A DNA stretch of 57,213 nucleotides from a virus (IMGVR_UViG_3300036828_000780:1-57213), one strand, 5' to 3'. Shown: positions 2,520 to 10,561, counted from the stretch's first letter. The notes: generated by a model from the letters alone, not told the origin. A program made the numbers and translations.

Positions 2520-2705
2520 CCGGTTTGTAACCGCGGCGCTAAGTTATTGATATTAGGTCGCGGCTTGCGGGCGGTTTGTAAGTCTAAGTCATTGATTATT
2601 CGAAAATGCAGCACTCCAAGCCGAACTCAACGATCCGACCGTGAGTGTAGGAAAACCGCGGGTTTCGCGGTGGGTTTGTAAGTCGATTTCAGGAGGTTTG
2701 TAAAA
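2520..2705. promoter_or_regulatory. Putative attP region with integrase arm sites and IHF sites
   Basis: GGTTTGTAA at 2522, 2573, 2673 and 2695; two matches to IHF consensus WATCAANNNNTTR on the minus strand (2540-2552, 2585-2597); non-coding gap between convergent genes downstream of int. Confidence 0.7.
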
Positions 2706-2716
2706 CCCGGGGTGGT

Positions 2717-3040
2717 TTACTGCTTGGTCGCGTCATCCGGCAGCAGATCGTCGAGGGCGCGTTTTTCGGCCCGGTCCTTAAACTCGGCAAACACCGCATC
2801 CTCGGTTTGGGCCGCATCGAACCCGTCCTCCCAGGCGGCGTCGTTGCCAGCCTCCAGTAGTCGGGCGACAACCGCCTGCAGGCACTCGATCCCAAAACCG
2901 CGCGGATAGGCCGCCTGCAAATGGTGGACGAGAGCCGCGGTCAGCAGATCGATCTGCTCATCCCAGTCGAGGCGATCCAGCGCCTTGCCGAGCTCGGCGG
3001 TGGCGAGATCCCGGCGGGCGCGTTTGCTCAAGCGCGGCAT
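2717..3040 (-). CDS. Hypothetical protein downstream of integrase
   Basis: ATG at 3040 with AGGAG RBS; MPRLSKRARRDLATAELGK... Confidence 0.6.
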   Translation of the reverse strand: MPRLSKRARRDLATAELGKALDRLDWDEQIDLLTAALVHHLQAAYPRGFGIECLQAVVARLLEAGNDAAWEDGFDAAQTEDAVFAEFKDRAEKRALDDLLPDDATKQ

Positions 3041-4200
3041 GAGGCAACTCCTTTCGCGATGGTGTTCTGCTGCTGTTCCGCGCGGGCGCCTTTGGCGGCC
3101 GCGGCGATCCCCTGGTGGGCGAGCATCTCGCGGTTGATCATCGCCAGGTAGCGGCGCAATTCCTTCGAGCTCTTGTGCCCGGTCACCGCCATCATCGCGT
3201 CCTCGCTGGCGCCGCCGCCGGCGGCCCGCCGGCACCACGCCTTGCGCAGCCCGTGCATCGTCGCTTCCGGCGGCAGGCCGGCGGCGTCGCACCAGGTGCC
3301 GAACGCCGCGCCGAGACCGCCGGGGTGAGAGTACCCTTTGCCGCGATTGCTGATGATGTAAGTCTTGAGCCCGCACACCGAGGCGGCAATGGTGTGCGCC
3401 AGCGCGGGCTCGACCGGGATATGCACGAGGGCCCCGGTCTTTTGTTGGCGCAGTGTCATGATGCCCGCTTTGACCATGCCCGGCCCCATGCGGAAGACGT
3501 CCGAGATGCGCTGCGCGGTGTATAGCGGCAAGGCCATTGCGAGCCGCGCCGTCGAGCCGATCGGGTGGTGCGCCTCGTATTGGGCGACCCAGGCTTCCGG
3601 CCAGGTCTGGTGCCCGTCCTCGCTGTCGTCGTCGGCCGCCTTGGCGGGCGGCTTGTAGCCTTTGAGGCCGGTGGTCGGATCCTCTTTGATCAGCTCGACG
3701 GCGACGGCGTATTGCATCAACCCGCGCAACGCGACGAGCGCGTTGCGCCGGGTCGACGGCAACAACAGATCGAGCCGGGCGATGATGTCGCCGCGCCGCA
3801 GGTCGCTCAGCAGGCGGTGGCCGTCCTGCGCCCGGAACCGTTCGAGGATGCCGCGGCGGGTGCGCTGGGTTCCGTCGGAGAGCGGTTCGAGAAAATATTG
3901 GTTGCTCTGGTAATAGGCGGCGATCGCCGCGCTGATCGTGCCGGCTTTCGAGCGCTTCGCCTCGCCGATCGCGACCGGCTCGACCTTGCGCATCTCGGCG
4001 AGGTAGGCGGTCAGGAACTCGACCGAGTCCGGTTCGCCGGGCAATGCCACCGCCGGGTGTCCGGGCCGGCGAAAGTACCGCCGCACCTTGCCGTGGCGGT
4101 CGGTGAAGCGGTTGACGTGCGGCAGTTCCTTGCCCGCTTGATGGCGGGGTTTATTGACCTTTTGGCTTTCGTTTCCAATAATCATCGGGTACGGGCTCAT
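3028..4200 (-). CDS. int: Tyrosine recombinase / phage integrase
   Basis: DRHGKVRRYFRR arm domain; YTAQRISD (R), QQKTG (K), HGLRKA, VTGH and RRY catalytic motifs; start approximate. Confidence 0.93.
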   Translation of the reverse strand: MSPYPMIIGNESQKVNKPRHQAGKELPHVNRFTDRHGKVRRYFRRPGHPAVALPGEPDSVEFLTAYLAEMRKVEPVAIGEAKRSKAGTISAAIAAYYQSNQYFLEPLSDGTQRTRRGILERFRAQDGHRLLSDLRRGDIIARLDLLLPSTRRNALVALRGLMQYAVAVELIKEDPTTGLKGYKPPAKAADDDSEDGHQTWPEAWVAQYEAHHPIGSTARLAMALPLYTAQRISDVFRMGPGMVKAGIMTLRQQKTGALVHIPVEPALAHTIAASVCGLKTYIISNRGKGYSHPGGLGAAFGTWCDAAGLPPEATMHGLRKAWCRRAAGGGASEDAMMAVTGHKSSKELRRYLAMINREMLAHQGIAAAAKGARAEQQQNTIAKGVASCRA

Positions 4201-4378
4201 CCCAGGAGTTCGTGACCGGAGCTGGCGTCGCGTCGTTTGCTGCGGGTGACGCCAGTTCCAACTTTATGCGACCATCCGATCCGATTTCCACTCGCGCAAC
4301 TTTGTTGCCGGTCTGCTCGACGGCGCGGATCGCGGCGGCGACGTCGCGTTGGCGGAAGGTTAGACGATCGCGCGCCAT
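4151..4378 (-). CDS. Excisionase-like small protein
   Basis: TFRQRDVAAAIRAVEQTG..VARVEIGSDGRI...NSWDE, the type of small gene found just upstream of such integrases. Confidence 0.65.
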   Translation of the reverse strand: MARDRLTFRQRDVAAAIRAVEQTGNKVARVEIGSDGRIKLELASPAANDATPAPVTNSWDEPVPDDYWKRKPKGQ

Positions 4379-4403
4379 CAATTGGGCGATCGGCTAGTTG
4401 ACG

Positions 4404-4631
4404 TCAAGTGGCGTCAATCGCGAAGTCGGGCAGGGCGGCCAGCCGCTGGCGCAGCTGGGAGTGCGCGACCCGCTTGCCATCGAGCAACGCATGGTGCGGG
4501 CCGGCGCGATAGATGCGATGCCCGGCGCGCCGCGCCGCGATGATCATCCGGTGTAATCCCGGGTCCTCGGGGTGCGCGAGGCGGCGTTGTGCCGGGATGA
4601 TCAGCGGGAGCTCAAAGTCGCGGCCTGTCAT
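4404..4631 (-). CDS. Hypothetical 75-aa protein directly after array B
   Basis: ATG at 4631, MTGRDFELPLIIP...; the longer in-frame ORF runs through the non-coding array. Confidence 0.5.
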   Translation of the reverse strand: MTGRDFELPLIIPAQRRLAHPEDPGLHRMIIAARRAGHRIYRAGPHHALLDGKRVAHSQLRQRLAALPDFAIDAT

Positions 4632-4633
4632 CG

Positions 4634-5290
4634 GGCTCTGCCTCGCCTGCTTTGCCATGCCCTGCCTTGCCATGCCCTGCCTCGCCGTGCCGAGCCGCGC
4701 CGCGCCCAGCCTGGCCCGGCCAAGCCCGGGAAATTCGCTAAAACCAAATCCTCGCCTCGCCTCGCCTTGCCGCGCCGCGCCCAGCCTCGCCCGGCCAAGC
4801 CAAGCCTGGCGGGGCCTTGCCACGAAATCCGCTAAACCCAAATCCTCGCCTCGCCTCGCCTCGCCCAGCCCTGCCCTGCCCGGCCGCGCCAAGCGCGGCC
4901 CTGCCATGCCTTGCCGGGAAATCCGCAAAAACAAATCCTCGCCTCGCCTCGCCGTGCCTAGCCCCGCCGTGCCGCGCCTGGCCCGGCCACGCCGAGCCTG
5001 GCCGGGCCTGGCCACGCAATCCGCAAAAAACAAATCCTCGCCTTGCCGTGCCACGCCGCGCCGAGCCTTGCCTAGCGACGCCTCGCCCGGGAAAATCCGC
5101 AAAAACCAAATCCTCGCCTCGCCTCGCCTTGCCGCACCCGGCCGCGCCCAGCCCGACCTCGCCCAGCCACGCCCCGCCCCGCCACCAAAACAAATCCTCG
5201 CCTCGCCTCGCCATGCCAGGCCTGGCCGCGCCATTACATGCCGGGCCCCGCCACGCGCGGCCTCGCCGCGCCTCGCCGGGAAACTCCTGT
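4634..5290 (-). ncRNA. GGY-NN pentamer array B (7 units separated by GGATTT...TTCC hairpin-like linkers); putative guide RNA array
   Basis: Minus strand reads e.g. GT-GGC-CA-GGC-CC-GGC-CA-GGC-TC-GGC-GT...GGC-GA-GGC-GA-GGATTTGTTTTTGCGGATTTCC; units at about 5198-5279, 5114-5185, 5038-5089, 4939-5015, 4846-4917, 4752-4823 and 4634-4728. Confidence 0.88.
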
Positions 5291-5947
5291 TCACGCCGCC
5301 GCCGCGGGTTGCTGCGCGCGCCACAGCTCGACCAGCCGGTCCATTGCGTCGCGAAAATTGGCGTTGTCGTGCGGCCACATGTCCTGTTCGAGGAGCAGCG
5401 CCAGTTGCCGCGCGTAAAAAGTCGCCGGATTGCCGCCATAGTGGCGCATCGCCTCGATCTGGTTGGCCGACAGCCGCTGGCCCTTGAGATGCGCGAGCCC
5501 GCGCTTTAGGGCGATTGCTTGCCCTGTCGGTGCGTGGCCAAATCCGCGGGTGATGTCGTCGATCTTCGGCGGCGGTATGCGCACCAATTCGCTGAGCGAG
5601 ATGCGTTCGTAGCCCAATGCGGTGAGCCGGGCGATGGCGCTGCGCAAATCATACCCGCTGAGCGGCTGGCCGTGGGCTACGTTGAGCCGCACGGCGTCGG
5701 CGAACAGCTCGGCCTCGCTGGCGTAGGTCCGGGTTTCGACCTCGATTGTGTCGATGCTGAGCGTCTCATAGGCGGCGTTGCGGTGCCAGCCGTCGACCAG
5801 GCGCCGGGTGTGCGCCTCGACGACAAGCGGCGGGAAACGCGCGCCTGCATTGTAGGCGTCGATTAGCCGGCCCACTGTAATTGGGTCGAGGTGCGCGCGC
5901 GCCCGCAATGTCTCGTCGCACTGGATGCGATTACGCTTCATCTTCAT
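5291..5947 (-). CDS. ParB/Srx-like N-terminal domain protein between the two arrays
   Basis: GGAGG RBS; FPPLVVE..TRRLVDGWHRNAAY and RLNVAHG motifs. Confidence 0.8.
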   Translation of the reverse strand: MKMKRNRIQCDETLRARAHLDPITVGRLIDAYNAGARFPPLVVEAHTRRLVDGWHRNAAYETLSIDTIEVETRTYASEAELFADAVRLNVAHGQPLSGYDLRSAIARLTALGYERISLSELVRIPPPKIDDITRGFGHAPTGQAIALKRGLAHLKGQRLSANQIEAMRHYGGNPATFYARQLALLLEQDMWPHDNANFRDAMDRLVELWRAQQPAAAA

Positions 5948-5957
5948 CGCCTGCCTC

Positions 5958-6334
5958 CAAATCCTCGCCTCGCCTCGCCTCGCCCAGCCTTGCCAGGCCG
6001 TGCCCCGCCGGGCCATGCCCGGCCAAGCCACGCCTGGAATTCCGCTAAACCCAAAGCCTCGCCTCGCCGTGCCTCGCCGGGCCCCGCCTCGGCCCGCCAG
6101 GCCATGCATCGCCACGCCTTGCCCGCGCCTGGCCCTGCCCCGGAAATTCAATAAACTCAAATCCTCGCCTCGCCTCGCCCAACCCAGCCATGCCACGCCT
6201 AACTCCGCCCCGCCGTGCCCTGCCCGGGATCAATAAACTCAAATCCCCGCCTCGCCTCGCCTGGCCTCGCCCCGCCGTGCCGAGCCACGCCCGGCCAGGC
6301 CTAGCCAAAACAAATCCCCGCCTCGCCTTGCGCG
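5958..6334 (-). ncRNA. GGY-NN pentamer array A (short leader plus 4 units); putative guide RNA array
   Basis: Starts right after the stop of the Cas7-like gene; units at about 6245-6306, 6165-6226, 6059-6141 and 5965-6036; same GGCGA-GGCGA-GGATTT 3' handle. Confidence 0.88.
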
Positions 6335-7111
6335 TCAGCTCTGCTCATCAGGCGGCGCGCCGTCCCAATCCAGAACGCCGGCGGGGTCGACCTCATCGAG
6401 CCGGGCGATCTCGCCGCCCGGCGTGTAGGCCTGCCACGGCCCGTCCCCGTAAGCGACGCCGATCAACGCGAACCTGCCGAACCATCCCTTGCTCTTGCCG
6501 GGGCGGTAATCGCCGACCCCTTTGCGCTGACCGGCGTCGGCCATGATGTCGGGCAGGATTGTCGGGTTGGGCACGAGCTGCTCGTCGAACAGCAGCGTCA
6601 TGTGGCCGATTGCCCAGACGTTGAACCGCGGCCGCGCCCGCAGGATGCGCTGGCGCTGCACGACCGCCGGGCGGCGGTCGATCTCGTAGCTGGACAATGG
6701 CGCGAGGTCGGCCGGATTGAGCAGCGCGAGGAATTCCTCCCTGACCTCGATATGCGCCAGCCATGGCGCAATCGAGCCGCGCGACCCTTTCGGCGCCTTG
6801 AAGATTGTCGCCGCCTCAAGCAAGGCCAGTCTGAAGGCCAGACCGAGGATCGCAAAGTGGCCTTCCGCGGTGCGATAGACGCCGGCCTCGGCCTCCACTT
6901 CGGGTTCGGGAATGTTCTTGCCGCCGCGGGCGGCGGCCGGGGTCAGCATTGCCTGCGCGTTGTGCGTCAAGAGCGGGCTGCGCCCCATCACCGAGAGCCG
7001 CAACCGGGCGCGCGCCTCGGCTTCCGGCGGCAAGACAAACGGGATCGTGCAGTCGAGATCTTCGGCGGGCGGCGCCAGTTGTGGGGCGTTGCGTCGTGAG
7101 GCGTTGCTCAT
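6335..7111 (-). CDS. Stand-alone Cas7/RAMP-like protein (Vipr-like), putative RNA-guided filament subunit
   Basis: LSVMGRSPLLTHN (RAMP beta1 + H), AFRLALLEAA helix, IDRRPAVVQRQRILRARPRF thumb, C-terminal G-rich loop AGQRKGVGDYRP...GWFGRF. Confidence 0.8.
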   Translation of the reverse strand: MSNASRRNAPQLAPPAEDLDCTIPFVLPPEAEARARLRLSVMGRSPLLTHNAQAMLTPAAARGGKNIPEPEVEAEAGVYRTAEGHFAILGLAFRLALLEAATIFKAPKGSRGSIAPWLAHIEVREEFLALLNPADLAPLSSYEIDRRPAVVQRQRILRARPRFNVWAIGHMTLLFDEQLVPNPTILPDIMADAGQRKGVGDYRPGKSKGWFGRFALIGVAYGDGPWQAYTPGGEIARLDEVDPAGVLDWDGAPPDEQS

Positions 7112-9423: not shown

Positions 9424-9795
9424 ATGTCTGATGACGCCCCGCTTGGTATGCACCCGGGTCCCGGCGTCCGCGTGCGGCCGCTGAACCGGCGGGCCACGAT
9501 CACCGAGCTCGTCGAGGACGCGGCGACCGGCTGGTGGAACCTCTCGGCCAGCTTTGATGACGCCAGCGGTCAGTGTCAGGAGATCTTTCTGTCGACCGCG
9601 CACCGCGCCGGCTCCGAATTCGATGCGCTGGTGCACGACGGCTGCATCCTCATCAGCCGCGATTGTCTGCAGCGCGGGCTGTCGGCGGCCGATCTGGTGC
9701 GCGGTCTGTCGGATCGGCCGCCCTCGCTCTACGCCAAGGCGCTGGGGATTTGCGCCGCCGAAGAGGATCGATTGCGATTGGAGCTGACCCCGTGA
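9424..9795 (+). CDS. TSCPD-domain (NrdJ C-terminal-like) protein
   Basis: NRRATIT...QEIFL...AGSEFDALVHDGCILISR.LQRG. Confidence 0.65.
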   Translation: MSDDAPLGMHPGPGVRVRPLNRRATITELVEDAATGWWNLSASFDDASGQCQEIFLSTAHRAGSEFDALVHDGCILISRDCLQRGLSAADLVRGLSDRPPSLYAKALGICAAEEDRLRLELTP

Positions 9796-10106
9796 AACGC
9801 AGCACCAGAGGCGGCGGCCGCCCGCAATTCCGTCGGCCGAGTTTGGGGCAGCTCGAGGCGGGGCTCGCCGTCGGGCACCCGCGGCCGTCGGGCCCATCGT
9901 CGGCGCCGGGGGTTGTCGAGAGCCTCGATTTGCGCCGGCTGGTCGCTGCCGCGGTCGAGGGGCAGCTCGGCCTTCTGCCGTCGGAGCTGACGATCGACCA
10001 GCTCGATTTCGCGGCGCTCGCCGGCCGCATCGGCGGTGAGGTCGTGCGGCAGCTCGCGCGCCGCGGCCTGGTCGCCGATATCCGGCCGGGCACTGACTTC
10101 GCATGA
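9792..10106 (+). CDS. Hypothetical protein
   Basis: GTGA/ATGA coupling to both neighbours. Confidence 0.5.
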   Translation: MKRSTRGGGRPQFRRPSLGQLEAGLAVGHPRPSGPSSAPGVVESLDLRRLVAAAVEGQLGLLPSELTIDQLDFAALAGRIGGEVVRQLARRGLVADIRPGTDFA

Positions 10107-10561
10107 AAACCTTATGGCTCGGCGCCGACGAGCGGTGCGCCATTGCCCGGTTGCGCGCCAAGGCCGAGGCCGCGCCGCTGGCGCCCGACGCGGTCGCCGT
10201 CGCCGCCGCCCGCCGGCGCCGCGGCCAGACCCCGCCCTTGCCGATCCCGTTTACCCTCGTTCTGCCCGACGGGTTTCGCGTCGCTTTTACGATCGAGCGG
10301 CACCCGTCGGGGCCCGAGCGGCACCTGGTCATTTGCGGCGCCGGGCATCCCGCCCAGGTCGCGATGCTGCTCGCCGAATTCGGCTTTCTCGGCGGCTGGC
10401 GCGAGTTGCCGGTGTGGATCGAGGCCTCCGGCGGCGGCCGCGGCCGCGCCGTCAATATCGCTGAGCCGCTGCCGCTGCCGGTGGAGCTCGAAATGCTGGT
10501 CGCGCCGCCCGAGGACGGCGAGGAGGTCGAGGACCTCGAGGTCGACGAGGAGGCCGCGTGA
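10103..10561 (+). CDS. Hypothetical phage protein
   Basis: Coupled ORF; GFRVAFTIERHPSG motif. Confidence 0.6.
   Translation: MKTLWLGADERCAIARLRAKAEAAPLAPDAVAVAAARRRRGQTPPLPIPFTLVLPDGFRVAFTIERHPSGPERHLVICGAGHPAQVAMLLAEFGFLGGWRELPVWIEASGGGRGRAVNIAEPLPLPVELEMLVAPPEDGEEVEDLEVDEEAA

What the first reader, a model, noticed from the sequence alone, without database searches (positions are those of the whole stretch)
4634..5015. Three guides in array B target the tyrosine-integrase HxxR box while the resident integrase differs
B4 (VHPHSVRHATGY), B6 (VNPHLFRDCAA) and B7 (RFRHCAAST) all decode to the H-x-x-R catalytic box of different tyrosine recombinase subfamilies. The phage's own integrase reads TMHGLRKAWC (about 3232-3261) and matches none. 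Inference: the system blocks integration or excision of co-resident prophages, satellites or islands.
Basis: partly seen in the sequence, partly recalled or inferred. Interest (0 to 1): 0.75.

Follow-up and report, generated by a model that had tools for sequence, protein, structure and literature searches.

The report
Phage VIPR guide targets recombinase genes
This temperate phage carries a recently described RNA-guided silencing system (VIPR), and at least one of its guide RNAs is written to match the catalytic-site codons of a family of tyrosine recombinases found in other mobile DNA, while sparing the phage's own integrase.

Summary
The region is a VIPR locus, a system described in 2026 preprints. 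It has a RAMP-fold Vipr gene (6335-7111, minus), a ParB-like accessory gene (5291-5947) and two arrays of GGCNN repeat guides.

- **B6: verified.** With up to 3 mismatches in 24 read bases it hits 6 of 401 and 4 of 141 alphaproteobacterial genomes (controls 1 and 0). It also matches two plasmids. Every hit is in codon phase on the HxxR box ([V/I]NPHLFRDCAAT or VNPHLFRHIAAK) of tandem tyrosine recombinases. VNPHLFRDCAA is that family's commonest box II string: 87 of 120 homologues fit at 10 or more of 12 residues.
- **B7: partial.** Only its first 8 units resemble that site (13-14 of 16). It lacks the His position and has no canonical tail.
- **B4: unverified.** No recombinase target was found in any search, and its HxxR reading depends on choosing His over Gln.
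- **Own integrase:** not matched (23-38% at its box II).
- **Extra finding:** guide A1 matches the serine-recombinase catalytic YxRVSTxxQ motif.

Silencing of a rival's recombinase by VIPR is already published for phage SUSP1, so this is a new member of a known kind.

The parts
6335..7111 (-). vipr gene (258 aa), a RAMP/Cas7-like protein
   Evidence: No Pfam family; phrog_4652 at E 2.7e-13. AF2 model with pLDDT 81.6. Foldseek top hits are Csm3 chains at E 2e-6. VIA top hits are Cmr, Csm and type IV Cas7 at Z 10.8-10.2. Homologues in 5 of 5 genome loci are flanked by GGYNN arrays.
5950..6334 (-). vrRNA array A: a tail-only remnant plus units A1-A4 (A3 has phase-breaking indels)
   Evidence: Pentamer parse; tail motif copies at 6311, 6240, 6158, 6052 and 5958.
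6262..6306 (-). guide A1, 9 units, decoding to Y-L-R-V-S-T-G-[DE]-[HQ]
   Evidence: On 29 serine-recombinase loci the top 9 matches are all in phase on GY[AL]RVST.[DE]Q at 14-15/18. The top-10 mean is 14.4 against 12.43 +/- 0.23 for shuffles, reached by 0 of 200.
5291..5947 (-). ParB-like accessory gene (218 aa), candidate vap
   Evidence: phrog_1033 'ParB-like partition protein' at E 2.7e-8, with no Pfam hit. A gene that reads as a homologue by eye (not aligned) follows vipr in L005.
4634..5290 (-). vrRNA array B, units B1-B7
   Evidence: Six tail copies at 5191, 5107, 5031, 4932, 4839 and 4745. B7 has no canonical tail and abuts the ATG at 4631.
4954..5018 (-). guide B4 (12 units plus the preceding TGC.GT pentamer); target not found
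   Evidence: Decode; negative searches; panel statistics.
4767..4826 (-). guide B6 (11 units plus the preceding TTC.GT pentamer); matches box II of a tyrosine-recombinase family
   Evidence: 21-22/24 read bases on 9 distinct in-phase sites in 9 genomes. 22/24 and 20/24 on two plasmids and 20/24 in G046. 87 of 120 family proteins are compatible at 10 or more of 12 residues.
4652..4731 (-). guide B7 (15 units). The first 8 resemble the B6 target site; the 3' part holds a 15-nt tandem duplication
   Evidence: 13-14/16 on 6 of 25 distinct box II sites of the B6 family. The full guide has no recombinase hit.
3028..4200 (-). resident tyrosine integrase; box II TMHGLRKAWC at 3232-3261; not matched by the guides
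   Evidence: PF00589 at E 3e-9 and phrog_1 at E 2.4e-22; match at box II is 23-38%.
4404..4631 (-). 75-aa ORF directly after array B, function unknown
   Evidence: no family found.

Best explanation
**What it is.** This is a VIPR (Viral Interference Programmable Repeat) locus of a temperate phage. Vipr protomers are expected to coat each roughly 90-nt vrRNA, hide the GGC of every pentamer and present the NN dinucleotides. The NN bases pair with double-stranded DNA while every third target base is skipped. In coding DNA, the guide therefore reads codon positions 1 and 2 and ignores the wobble base.

**Guide B6.** B6 is written as the commonest box II (HxxR) sequence, VNPHLFRDCAA, of one family of tyrosine recombinases. 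These sit in operons made of a ~600-aa tyrosine recombinase, a ~350-380-aa tyrosine recombinase (the target) and often a large serine recombinase. The operons occur on alphaproteobacterial chromosomes and plasmids.

**Guide B7.** Its 5' half reads the overlapping FR[D/H]CAA[S/T]T stretch of the same family. It is probably a variant or decaying copy.

**Guide B4.** Its target is unresolved. It may be an unsampled recombinase.

**Guide A1.** A1, in the other array, reads the serine-recombinase catalytic motif.

**Likely effect (inferred).** Binding inside these genes silences the rival element's recombinase and so immobilises it. The phage's own integrase has a different box (HGLRK) and is untouched.

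**Shown here:** the parts list, the RAMP fold, the array anatomy, the in-phase matches and the absence of self-targeting.

**Inferred from the preprints:** RNP formation, DNA binding and the effect on recombination.
For: **VIPR identity**
- RAMP fold of the 258-aa protein.
- GGCNN arrays with a conserved 3' tail on both sides of the accessory gene.
- The same architecture in 5 of 5 genome loci that encode a homologue.
- Phage context: large terminase, portal and integrase.
- The published description: 9-16 GGY/NN repeats plus a tail, the 1-nt skip rule and wobble alignment.

**B6**
- 6 hits in 6 of 401 genomes (control 1), and 5 hits in 4 of 141 genomes (control 0).
- All hits are in phase on HLFR...G[HN]...Y of recombinase ORFs.
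- Across the 9 distinct sites the skipped base varies at 12 of 12 codons, against 5 of 12 (position 1) and 2 of 12 (position 2).
- Target proteins hit PF00589 (1 of 4 above cut-off). All 4 of 4 hit XerC/XerD-type NCBIfam models at E 5e-9 to 5e-11, below those models' cut-offs.
- Of the 120 listed homologues, many carry PF00589, and 87 fit B6 at 10 or more of 12 residues.
- Plasmid copies match at 22/24 and 20/24.
- On an unselected panel of 118 recombinase domains, B6's best in-frame register is box II in 59 of 118 (P = 0.005).

**A1:**

**No self-match:**

**Precedent for the effect:** a SUSP1 vrRNA on a satellite's excision recombinase prevents circularisation (passages seen).
Against: - **B4:** no recombinase match. 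There were 0 hits in 401 genomes and 0 exact-core hits in IMG/VR. Two hits in JGI metagenomes were both out of phase. Of 7 hits in 141 genomes (control 2), none was in a recombinase. The best match on the B6 family is 16/26.
- **B7 as a whole guide:** 0 and 18 exact-core hits in IMG/VR, none in phase in an integrase. There were 8 hits against 5 control hits in 401 genomes, none in a recombinase. Its best residue fit on the family is 8 of 15.
- **B6:** no target matches it perfectly. The best is 22/24, and its last unit (AA) disagrees with the family's Thr or Ser.
- **Host unknown:** the portal protein finds at most 48% identity in 401 genomes. Co-residence of phage and target is therefore not shown.
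- **Target elements:** no homologue of the query recombinase was found in the phage collection. No element ends were found.
- **Vipr sequence similarity:** the Vipr protein has no tblastn match in the phage collection, which I take to include SUSP1 (not checked). Kinship to published Viprs rests on fold and locus anatomy.
- **No functional evidence:** expression, processing and binding were not tested.
Confidence: 0.7

Rival explanations
1. One reading: B4, B6 and B7 each target the HxxR box of a different tyrosine-recombinase subfamily.
For: - B4 and B6 both decode to V-x-P-H-x-x-R.
- On the recombinase panel, each guide's commonest best register is exactly the box II register: start columns 127, 127 and 131, with His at column 129.
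- B4 including its lead-in pentamer is borderline: 31 of 118, P = 0.07.
- A1 shows that this phage also aims at another recombinase superfamily.
- Variants such as INPHLLRHCAATS exist in the B6 family.
Against: - B4 without the lead-in is at chance level: 13 of 118, P = 0.53, with a maximum of 14/24.
- Every B4 hit in genomes or metagenomes was out of phase or in another gene, and 4 of 7 hits lay in an aspartyl-tRNA-synthetase-like gene.
- B4's His residues could equally be Gln.
- B7 and B6 point to one family, not to different subfamilies.
Confidence: 0.3
2. Only B6 is a working anti-recombinase guide. B7 is a decayed duplicate, and B4 targets an unrelated gene, so its HxxR look is chance plus a free choice of residues.
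For: - B7 has no canonical tail and carries a 15-nt tandem duplication.
- It shares 5 of 6 units with the 3' half of B6.
- The B4 and B7 panel statistics are not significant.
- CA-x-x-CG is not rare given the guide composition: 7 CA and 10 CG among 109 units.
Against: - B7 extends past B6 by two codons (S-T) that fit the family's T/S-T.
- P-H-x-x-R occurs in two guides although CC makes up only 4 of 109 units.
Confidence: 0.4
3. The pentamer arrays are not guides. They would be binding tracks for an oligomeric RNA- or DNA-binding protein (as the TRAP protein binds GAG repeats spaced by 2-3 nt, recalled), or a centromere-like site for the ParB-like protein, with NN as meaningless spacers.
For: The strict 5-nt period with a conserved GGC, and a ParB-like gene between the arrays.
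Against: - Meaningless spacers would not match 9 distinct recombinase sites in codon phase at 21-22/24.
- Nor would they match the serine-recombinase motif.
- The neighbouring protein has a Cas7-like fold.
- The published biochemistry shows that NN specifies the target.
Confidence: 0.03
4. The guides are real, but the aim is not to immobilise rivals. For example, the phage might silence a host-resident recombinase operon that would otherwise rearrange or invade the phage genome, or the guides might serve as decoys in conflicts between VIPR systems.
For: - The targets are compact recombinase operons. No phage homologue was found.
- Satellites with orphan vrRNAs that misdirect Vipr are described.
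Against: - The arrays sit beside an intact vipr gene, so they are not orphan guides.
- Silencing a recombinase has the same immediate consequence either way.
Confidence: 0.15

Closest known systems
VIPR systems (Vipr + vrRNA + Vap), bioRxiv 10.64898/2026.04.26.720920; characterised type II systems of phage SUSP1 and a Pseudomonas fulva prophage
   Same: - A RAMP-fold protein.
- Arrays of GGY/NN pentamer guides with an invariant 3' tail flanking the protein genes.
- Phage-borne.
- The 1-nt skip rule, with the skipped base on the wobble position.
- No self-targeting.
   Different: - No sequence match between this Vipr and anything in the phage collection.
- The accessory gene is ParB-like, and the word ParB does not occur in the main text of that preprint.
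- The tail is short and was not tested for a pseudoknot.
- The host appears to be a high-GC bacterium, probably an alphaproteobacterium, judging from the closest homologue's label.
- Which of the seven published types this locus belongs to could not be decided, because the figure and supplements were not readable.
SUSP1 vrRNA4 silencing of the F5 satellite's excision recombinase, bioRxiv 10.64898/2026.10.15.759431 (passages seen)
   Same: A phage vrRNA reads invariant codon positions in the catalytic core of a rival element's recombinase, and the wobble positions are skipped.
   Different: - There the target is a large serine recombinase and the footprint is 18 bp.
- Here B6 reads 12 codons of a tyrosine recombinase's box II, including the catalytic His and Arg codons.
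- The same phage also carries a guide (A1) on the serine-recombinase nucleophile motif.
- The effect on excision is shown there and only inferred here.
Class 1 CRISPR effector backbones (Cas7, Csm3, Cmr4)
   Same: The fold of the protein and periodic interruption of guide-target pairing.
   Different: - No CRISPR repeats, no other cas genes and no adaptation genes were seen in the neighbourhood.
- Pairing is 2 in 5 on the RNA and 2 in 3 on the DNA, rather than 5 in 6.
Multi-recombinase mobile elements (Tn554-related, GInt, SE, RIT), as listed in PMC10214605 (passages seen). These are relatives of the target, not of the guide system
   Same: The B6 target lies in an operon of overlapping recombinase genes, with a ~600-aa and a ~350-aa tyrosine recombinase, much like the sizes of Tn554 TnpB and TnpA (sizes recalled).
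   Different: - The gene order is reversed.
- A large serine recombinase is the third gene in 3 of 3 chromosomal loci examined.
- SE and GInt were reported as absent from Alphaproteobacteria.
- Membership was not tested.

Membership tests
VIPR system | Vipr protein with a RAMP (RRM core, G-loop, thumb) fold | tested here: met
   AF2 model with pLDDT 81.6. Foldseek: Csm3 chains at E 2e-6, probability 1.00. VIA: Z 10.8 (rmsd 3.7, 159 residues aligned) to a Cmr chain, and Z 10.6 and 10.2 to Csm and type IV Cas7. A Gly-rich GVGDYRPGKSKGWFGRF stretch is conserved.
VIPR system | vrRNAs of about 9-16 GGY/NN pentamer repeats flanking vipr | tested here: met
   Ten regular units of 9-15 variable pentamers, plus one irregular unit, on the gene strand.
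VIPR system | Invariant 3' tail after the variable tract | tested here: met
   Tail motif found 11 times with at most 1 mismatch, against 0.63 expected. B7 lacks it. The tail's secondary structure was not tested.
VIPR system | Targets follow the 1-nt skip rule, with the skipped base at the wobble position | tested here: met
   B6 and A1. Other skip lengths were not tested as controls.
VIPR system | No self-targeting at 80% NN match or more | tested here: met
   The best self matches are 60-73%.
VIPR system | Accessory vap gene of one of the published classes (vap1-6) | tested here: inconclusive
   A ParB-like gene lies between the arrays, and a gene that reads as its homologue by eye (not aligned) follows vipr in L005. 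The published vap classes are defined in a figure and supplements I could not read.
VIPR system | Sequence or phylogenetic placement among published Vipr proteins | tested here: inconclusive
   tblastn against the phage collection gave no match. No published Vipr sequence was compared directly.
VIPR system | vrRNA expressed and bound by Vipr; RNP binds dsDNA | not testable with these tools
   This needs small-RNA sequencing, pull-down and binding assays.
Tyrosine recombinase (the B6 target) | Catalytic R...HxxR...H/W...Y signature and the PF00589 domain | tested here: met
   PF00589 is above cut-off for 1 of 4 small-partner proteins and for the large partners. All 4 of 4 hit XerC/XerD models at E 5e-9 to 5e-11, below the cut-offs. 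Many of the 120 listed homologues carry PF00589. HLFR...LGH...Y is seen in every site.

The most novel reading that the evidence does not exclude
One phage carries a guide set written as consensus catalytic motifs of both recombinase superfamilies: tyrosine box II (B6, perhaps B7 and B4) and the serine nucleophile motif (A1). Wobble bases are skipped and these motifs cannot mutate freely. Each guide would therefore act as a broad-spectrum 'anti-recombinase' that immobilises whole families of rival mobile elements across hosts. The phage's own divergent integrase (HGLRK box) would be exempt.
Probability: 0.3. Interest if true: 0.7.

Novelty: new member of a known kind. Interest (0 to 1): 0.45.

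Why it matters
- **Independent support for the rule.** In a distant, high-GC VIPR lineage with a ParB-like accessory gene, the 1-nt-skip, wobble-aligned targeting rule holds.
- **A wider target range.** The one experimentally known logic, a vrRNA on a rival's serine recombinase, extends here to the catalytic HxxR box of tyrosine recombinases.
- **A possible broad-range strategy.** The guide equals the commonest box II string of a whole recombinase family. That suggests VIPR guides can be aimed at motifs rather than at single elements, which bears on how such guides arise and how broad their protection is.
- **A concrete test system.** The locus offers vipr, a ParB-like gene, an 11-12-unit guide and a defined 36-bp target.

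Tried and rejected
1. **Rfam and tRNA scans** of the window found nothing.
2. **A TRAP-like or centromere-like reading** of the pentamers was considered first. It was dropped after the literature hit and the B6 matches.
3. **Close-relative scans in IMG/VR** gave little. The Vipr protein found nothing, the ParB-like protein found one weak locus, and the tail motif found 2 loci of which only L003 is related.
4. **Exact-core scans**
   - B4, B6 and B7 cores in IMG/VR: 0, 0 and 0 hits.
   - B7 8-unit core: 18 hits, none in phase in an integrase.
   - B4 with its two x positions masked: 0 hits.
   - B4 10-unit core in JGI metagenomes: 2 chance hits.
5. **First recombinase panel.** It contained wrong-strand translations, because both strands are open in GC-rich DNA. 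Searches are therefore superseded. A position-specific log-odds score on that panel was uninformative.
6. **A1 with at most 2 mismatches** in 5 large genomes: 0 hits.
7. **Host search with the portal protein:** best identity 48%, so no host lineage could be named.
8. **Guides of five sister loci and L003**, decoded in both senses, showed no recombinase motif by eye.
9. **Inverted repeats** around three target operons gave no element ends.
10. **Other guides against the B6-family proteins:** B4 (6 of 13), B7 (8 of 15) and all remaining guides were at background level.

Full report
**What is there**

On the minus strand the window carries a single-direction gene string:
- a 258-aa gene (7111-6335);
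- an array of GGCNN pentamers (array A, 6334-5950);
- a 218-aa ParB-like gene (5947-5291);
- a second array (array B, 5290-4634);
- two small ORFs;
- a tyrosine integrase (4200-3028).

Each array unit has 9-15 pentamers whose last two bases vary. The unit ends in GGCGA repeats and the tail GGATTTG plus a T-run. The 17-nt tail motif occurs 11 times with at most 1 mismatch inside the arrays, against 0.63 expected. Tandem Repeats Finder sees the period of 5, 10 or 15. Rfam and tRNA scans are empty. The contig is a temperate phage with a large terminase, portal, tail proteins and a methyltransferase. It is the whole 'genome' held for this window.

**It is a VIPR locus**

A text search led to bioRxiv 10.64898/2026.04.26.720920. 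I read the outline, both parts of the Results, Methods sections 20, 26 and 27, and term searches. I could not read the supplements.

That preprint describes Viral Interference Programmable Repeat systems:
- a RAMP protein (Vipr);
- an accessory gene (vap);
- ~100-nt vrRNAs of 9-16 GGY/NN repeats followed by an invariant tail.

The NN dinucleotides pair with dsDNA while one target base is skipped per unit. The skipped base usually falls on the codon wobble position. Targets lie on either strand, and no self-targeting is seen.

The window fits this description.
- The 258-aa protein has no Pfam family and falls in phrog_4652.
- An AlphaFold model built on 24 homologues (pLDDT 81.6) matches Csm3/Cas7 chains: Foldseek E 2e-6, and VIA Z 10.8, 10.6 and 10.2 to Cmr, Csm and type IV Cas7.
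- All 5 genome loci that encode a homologue, in five different phyla or classes, have GGYNN arrays beside it. One of them (L005) also has a gene after vipr that reads, by eye and without alignment, as a homologue of the ParB-like gene.

The Vipr protein finds nothing in the phage collection by tblastn. Kinship to the published proteins therefore rests on fold and anatomy.

Reading each NN as codon positions 1-2 is the published rule, and it reproduces the three strings. Four caveats apply.
- Many units are two- or three-fold ambiguous: CA is His or Gln, GA is Asp or Glu, and TG is Cys, Trp or stop.
- The first residue of each string comes from the pentamer before the first canonical GGC.
- B7 holds only the Arg of HxxR.
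- B7 has no canonical tail, and its 3' part is a 15-nt tandem duplication.

The resident integrase box TMHGLRKAWC at 3232-3261 is right. The guides match it at only 9/24, 7/22 and 7/30. No guide matches the contig anywhere at 80% or more.

**Searching for targets**

*Exact cores.*
- B4, B6 and B7 found nothing in IMG/VR.
- An 8-unit B7 core gave 18 hits, none in phase in an integrase.
- B4 with its two 'x' units masked gave 0 hits.
- A 10-unit B4 core in JGI metagenomes gave 2 hits, both out of phase with mismatching flanks.

*Searches allowing up to 3 mismatches, in sampled genomes.*
- **B4:** 0 of 401 genomes (control 2). In a second set, 7 hits in 141 genomes (control 2). None was in a recombinase, and four lay out of phase in an aspartyl-tRNA-synthetase-like gene.
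- **B7:** 8 hits against 5 control hits, none in phase in a recombinase.
- **B6 (12 units including the lead-in pentamer):** 6 hits in 6 of 401 genomes (control 1), and 5 hits in 4 of 141 genomes (control 0).

Every B6 hit is in codon phase, on the sense strand, at [V/I]NPHLFRDCAAT or VNPHLFRHIAAK. Each is followed by LGH or HGH and then the Tyr region of a recombinase ORF. Each has 21-22 of 24 read bases matching. Among the 9 distinct sites the skipped base varies at 12 of 12 codons. Codon position 1 varies at 5 of 12 and position 2 at 2 of 12.

Further matches turned up in loci fetched for other reasons:
- 20/24 in G046;
- 22/24 on a Roseomonas haemaphysalidis plasmid;
- 20/24 on an Azospirillum plasmid.

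**What the B6 target is**

The target protein (~350-380 aa) is a tyrosine recombinase.
- PF00589 is above cut-off for 1 of 4 proteins tested.
- All 4 of 4 hit XerC/XerD-type NCBIfam models at E 5e-9 to 5e-11, below those models' cut-offs.
- It has 203 homologues at E 1e-10 or better. Many of the 120 listed carry PF00589 or are named integrase.
- In those 120, VNPHLFRDCAAT(S/T)I is the dominant box II string. B6 is residue-compatible at 10 or more of 12 positions in 87 of 120, with a best of 11/12.

The gene is the middle one of an operon with 4-bp overlaps. In 3 of 3 chromosomal loci examined the order is a ~600-620-aa tyrosine recombinase (PF00589), then the target, then a ~540-565-aa large serine recombinase (PF00239, PF07508, PF13408). 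On the five annotated plasmid records examined (of seven fetched; two carry no annotation), a small HTH gene precedes the two tyrosine recombinases.

The phage collection has no homologue. I found no terminal repeats. The arrangement recalls Tn554-related, GInt, SE and RIT elements (passages of PMC10214605), but membership was not tested.

**Statistics on an unselected panel**

I built a panel of 118 unique recombinase domains from 41 sampled genomes (cleaned). An earlier version held wrong-strand members, so searches are void.

| Guide | Best in-frame register = box II | P (shuffled guides) | Best match |
|---|---|---|---|
| B6 with lead-in | 59 of 118 | 0.005 | 18/24 (P = 0.013); top-10 mean P = 0.003 |
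| B4 with lead-in | 31 of 118 | 0.07 | 16/26 |
| B4 without lead-in | 13 of 118 | 0.53 | 14/24 |
| B7 | 16 of 118 | 0.24 | 17/30 |

B7's first 8 units match 13-14 of 16 on 6 of the 25 distinct box II sites of the B6 family. One of those sites is the variant INPHLLRHCAATS. Its 3' half matches nothing there.

**A second recombinase guide**

A1 (6306-6262) decodes to Y-L-R-V-S-T-G-[DE]-[HQ]. On 29 serine-recombinase loci (PF00239) its 9 best matches are all in phase on the catalytic GY[AL]RVST.[DE]Q motif at 14-15 of 18. The top-10 mean is 14.4 against 12.43 +/- 0.23 for shuffles, reached by 0 of 200. With at most 2 mismatches it found nothing in 5 large genomes.

**How it most likely works**

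Shown here: the parts, the fold, the guide anatomy, the in-phase matches and the sparing of the phage's own integrase.

Inferred from the preprints:
- Vipr protomers coat the vrRNA and present NN, and the filament forms an R-loop triplex on dsDNA (passages of 10.64898/2026.04.26.720927).
- Binding silences transcription.
- In SUSP1, a vrRNA on the active-site codons of a satellite's serine recombinase keeps the satellite from excising (passages of 10.64898/2026.10.15.759431).

By analogy, B6 would silence the small tyrosine recombinase of the three-gene operons and so immobilise them. Whether the ParB-like protein adds binding, spreading or cleavage is unknown.

**Known or new**

The system and the idea of silencing a rival's recombinase are in print. 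I found no mention of integrase, recombinase or ParB in the main text of the first preprint or of the structural one. The recombinase in the third preprint is a serine enzyme. The listing shows only four papers that hold the vrRNA or VIPR terms in this sense. The closed supplementary target tables may still list tyrosine-recombinase targets.

I therefore file this as a new member of a known kind. Its modestly new points are a consensus-level guide on tyrosine-recombinase box II, a companion guide on the serine motif, and a ParB-like accessory gene.

**Verdict**

- B6: claim confirmed.
- B7: half confirmed, for the same family and not a different one.
- B4: unproven.
- Own integrase spared: confirmed.
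- Effect on excision or integration: plausible by precedent, untested here.

Noticed in passing
window 6262-6306 (-): Guide A1 decodes to YLRVSTG[DE][HQ]. It matches the catalytic N-terminal motif of serine recombinases in phase at 14-15 of 18 in 9 of 29 loci, a result reached by 0 of 200 shuffles.
   Followed up: yes
window 5985-6034 (-): Guide A4 decodes to V[FL]R[IM]PGTL[KN][CW*]. From memory only, R-x-P-G-T-x-N resembles a primase/AEP-type motif. On the integrase panel its best match (15/20) falls on box I, GLRISEALNL (P about 0.05).
   Followed up: partly
window 6060-6139 (-): Unit A3 breaks the 5-nt phase twice (one extra G, then a 4-nt and a 6-nt unit). It may be a decaying guide.
   Followed up: no
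window 2522-2703 (+): Four exact copies of GGTTTGTAA lie within 180 nt, just beyond the integrase operon, against 0.07 expected. They are possibly arm-type or regulatory binding sites near the attachment region.
   Followed up: partly
L003 10340-11160 (+), and 6426-6691: This IMG/VR contig has a Vipr homologue (9749-10339) followed by an ~800-nt tract. The tract has a looser 5-nt period (NGCNN- or GG-type units) and ends in the same GGCGAGGCGAGGATTTG tail. The contig also has a canonical GGYNN array 3 kb upstream. The preprint mentions alternative NNNGG, YNNNG and NNNNG repeats.
   Followed up: no
L179 6634-11233; L181 8059-12658; L180 8081-12617: A compact operon of three recombinases: a ~610-aa tyrosine, a ~360-aa tyrosine and a ~550-aa large serine recombinase, with 4-bp overlaps. 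It sits between housekeeping genes. On plasmids, an HTH gene plus the two tyrosine recombinases occur without the serine enzyme. This may be an undescribed kind of multi-recombinase element in Alphaproteobacteria.
   Followed up: partly
window 4404-4631 and 4151-4381 (-): Two ORFs of 75-76 aa lie between array B and the integrase and belong to no family. The first starts right at the end of guide B7.
   Followed up: no
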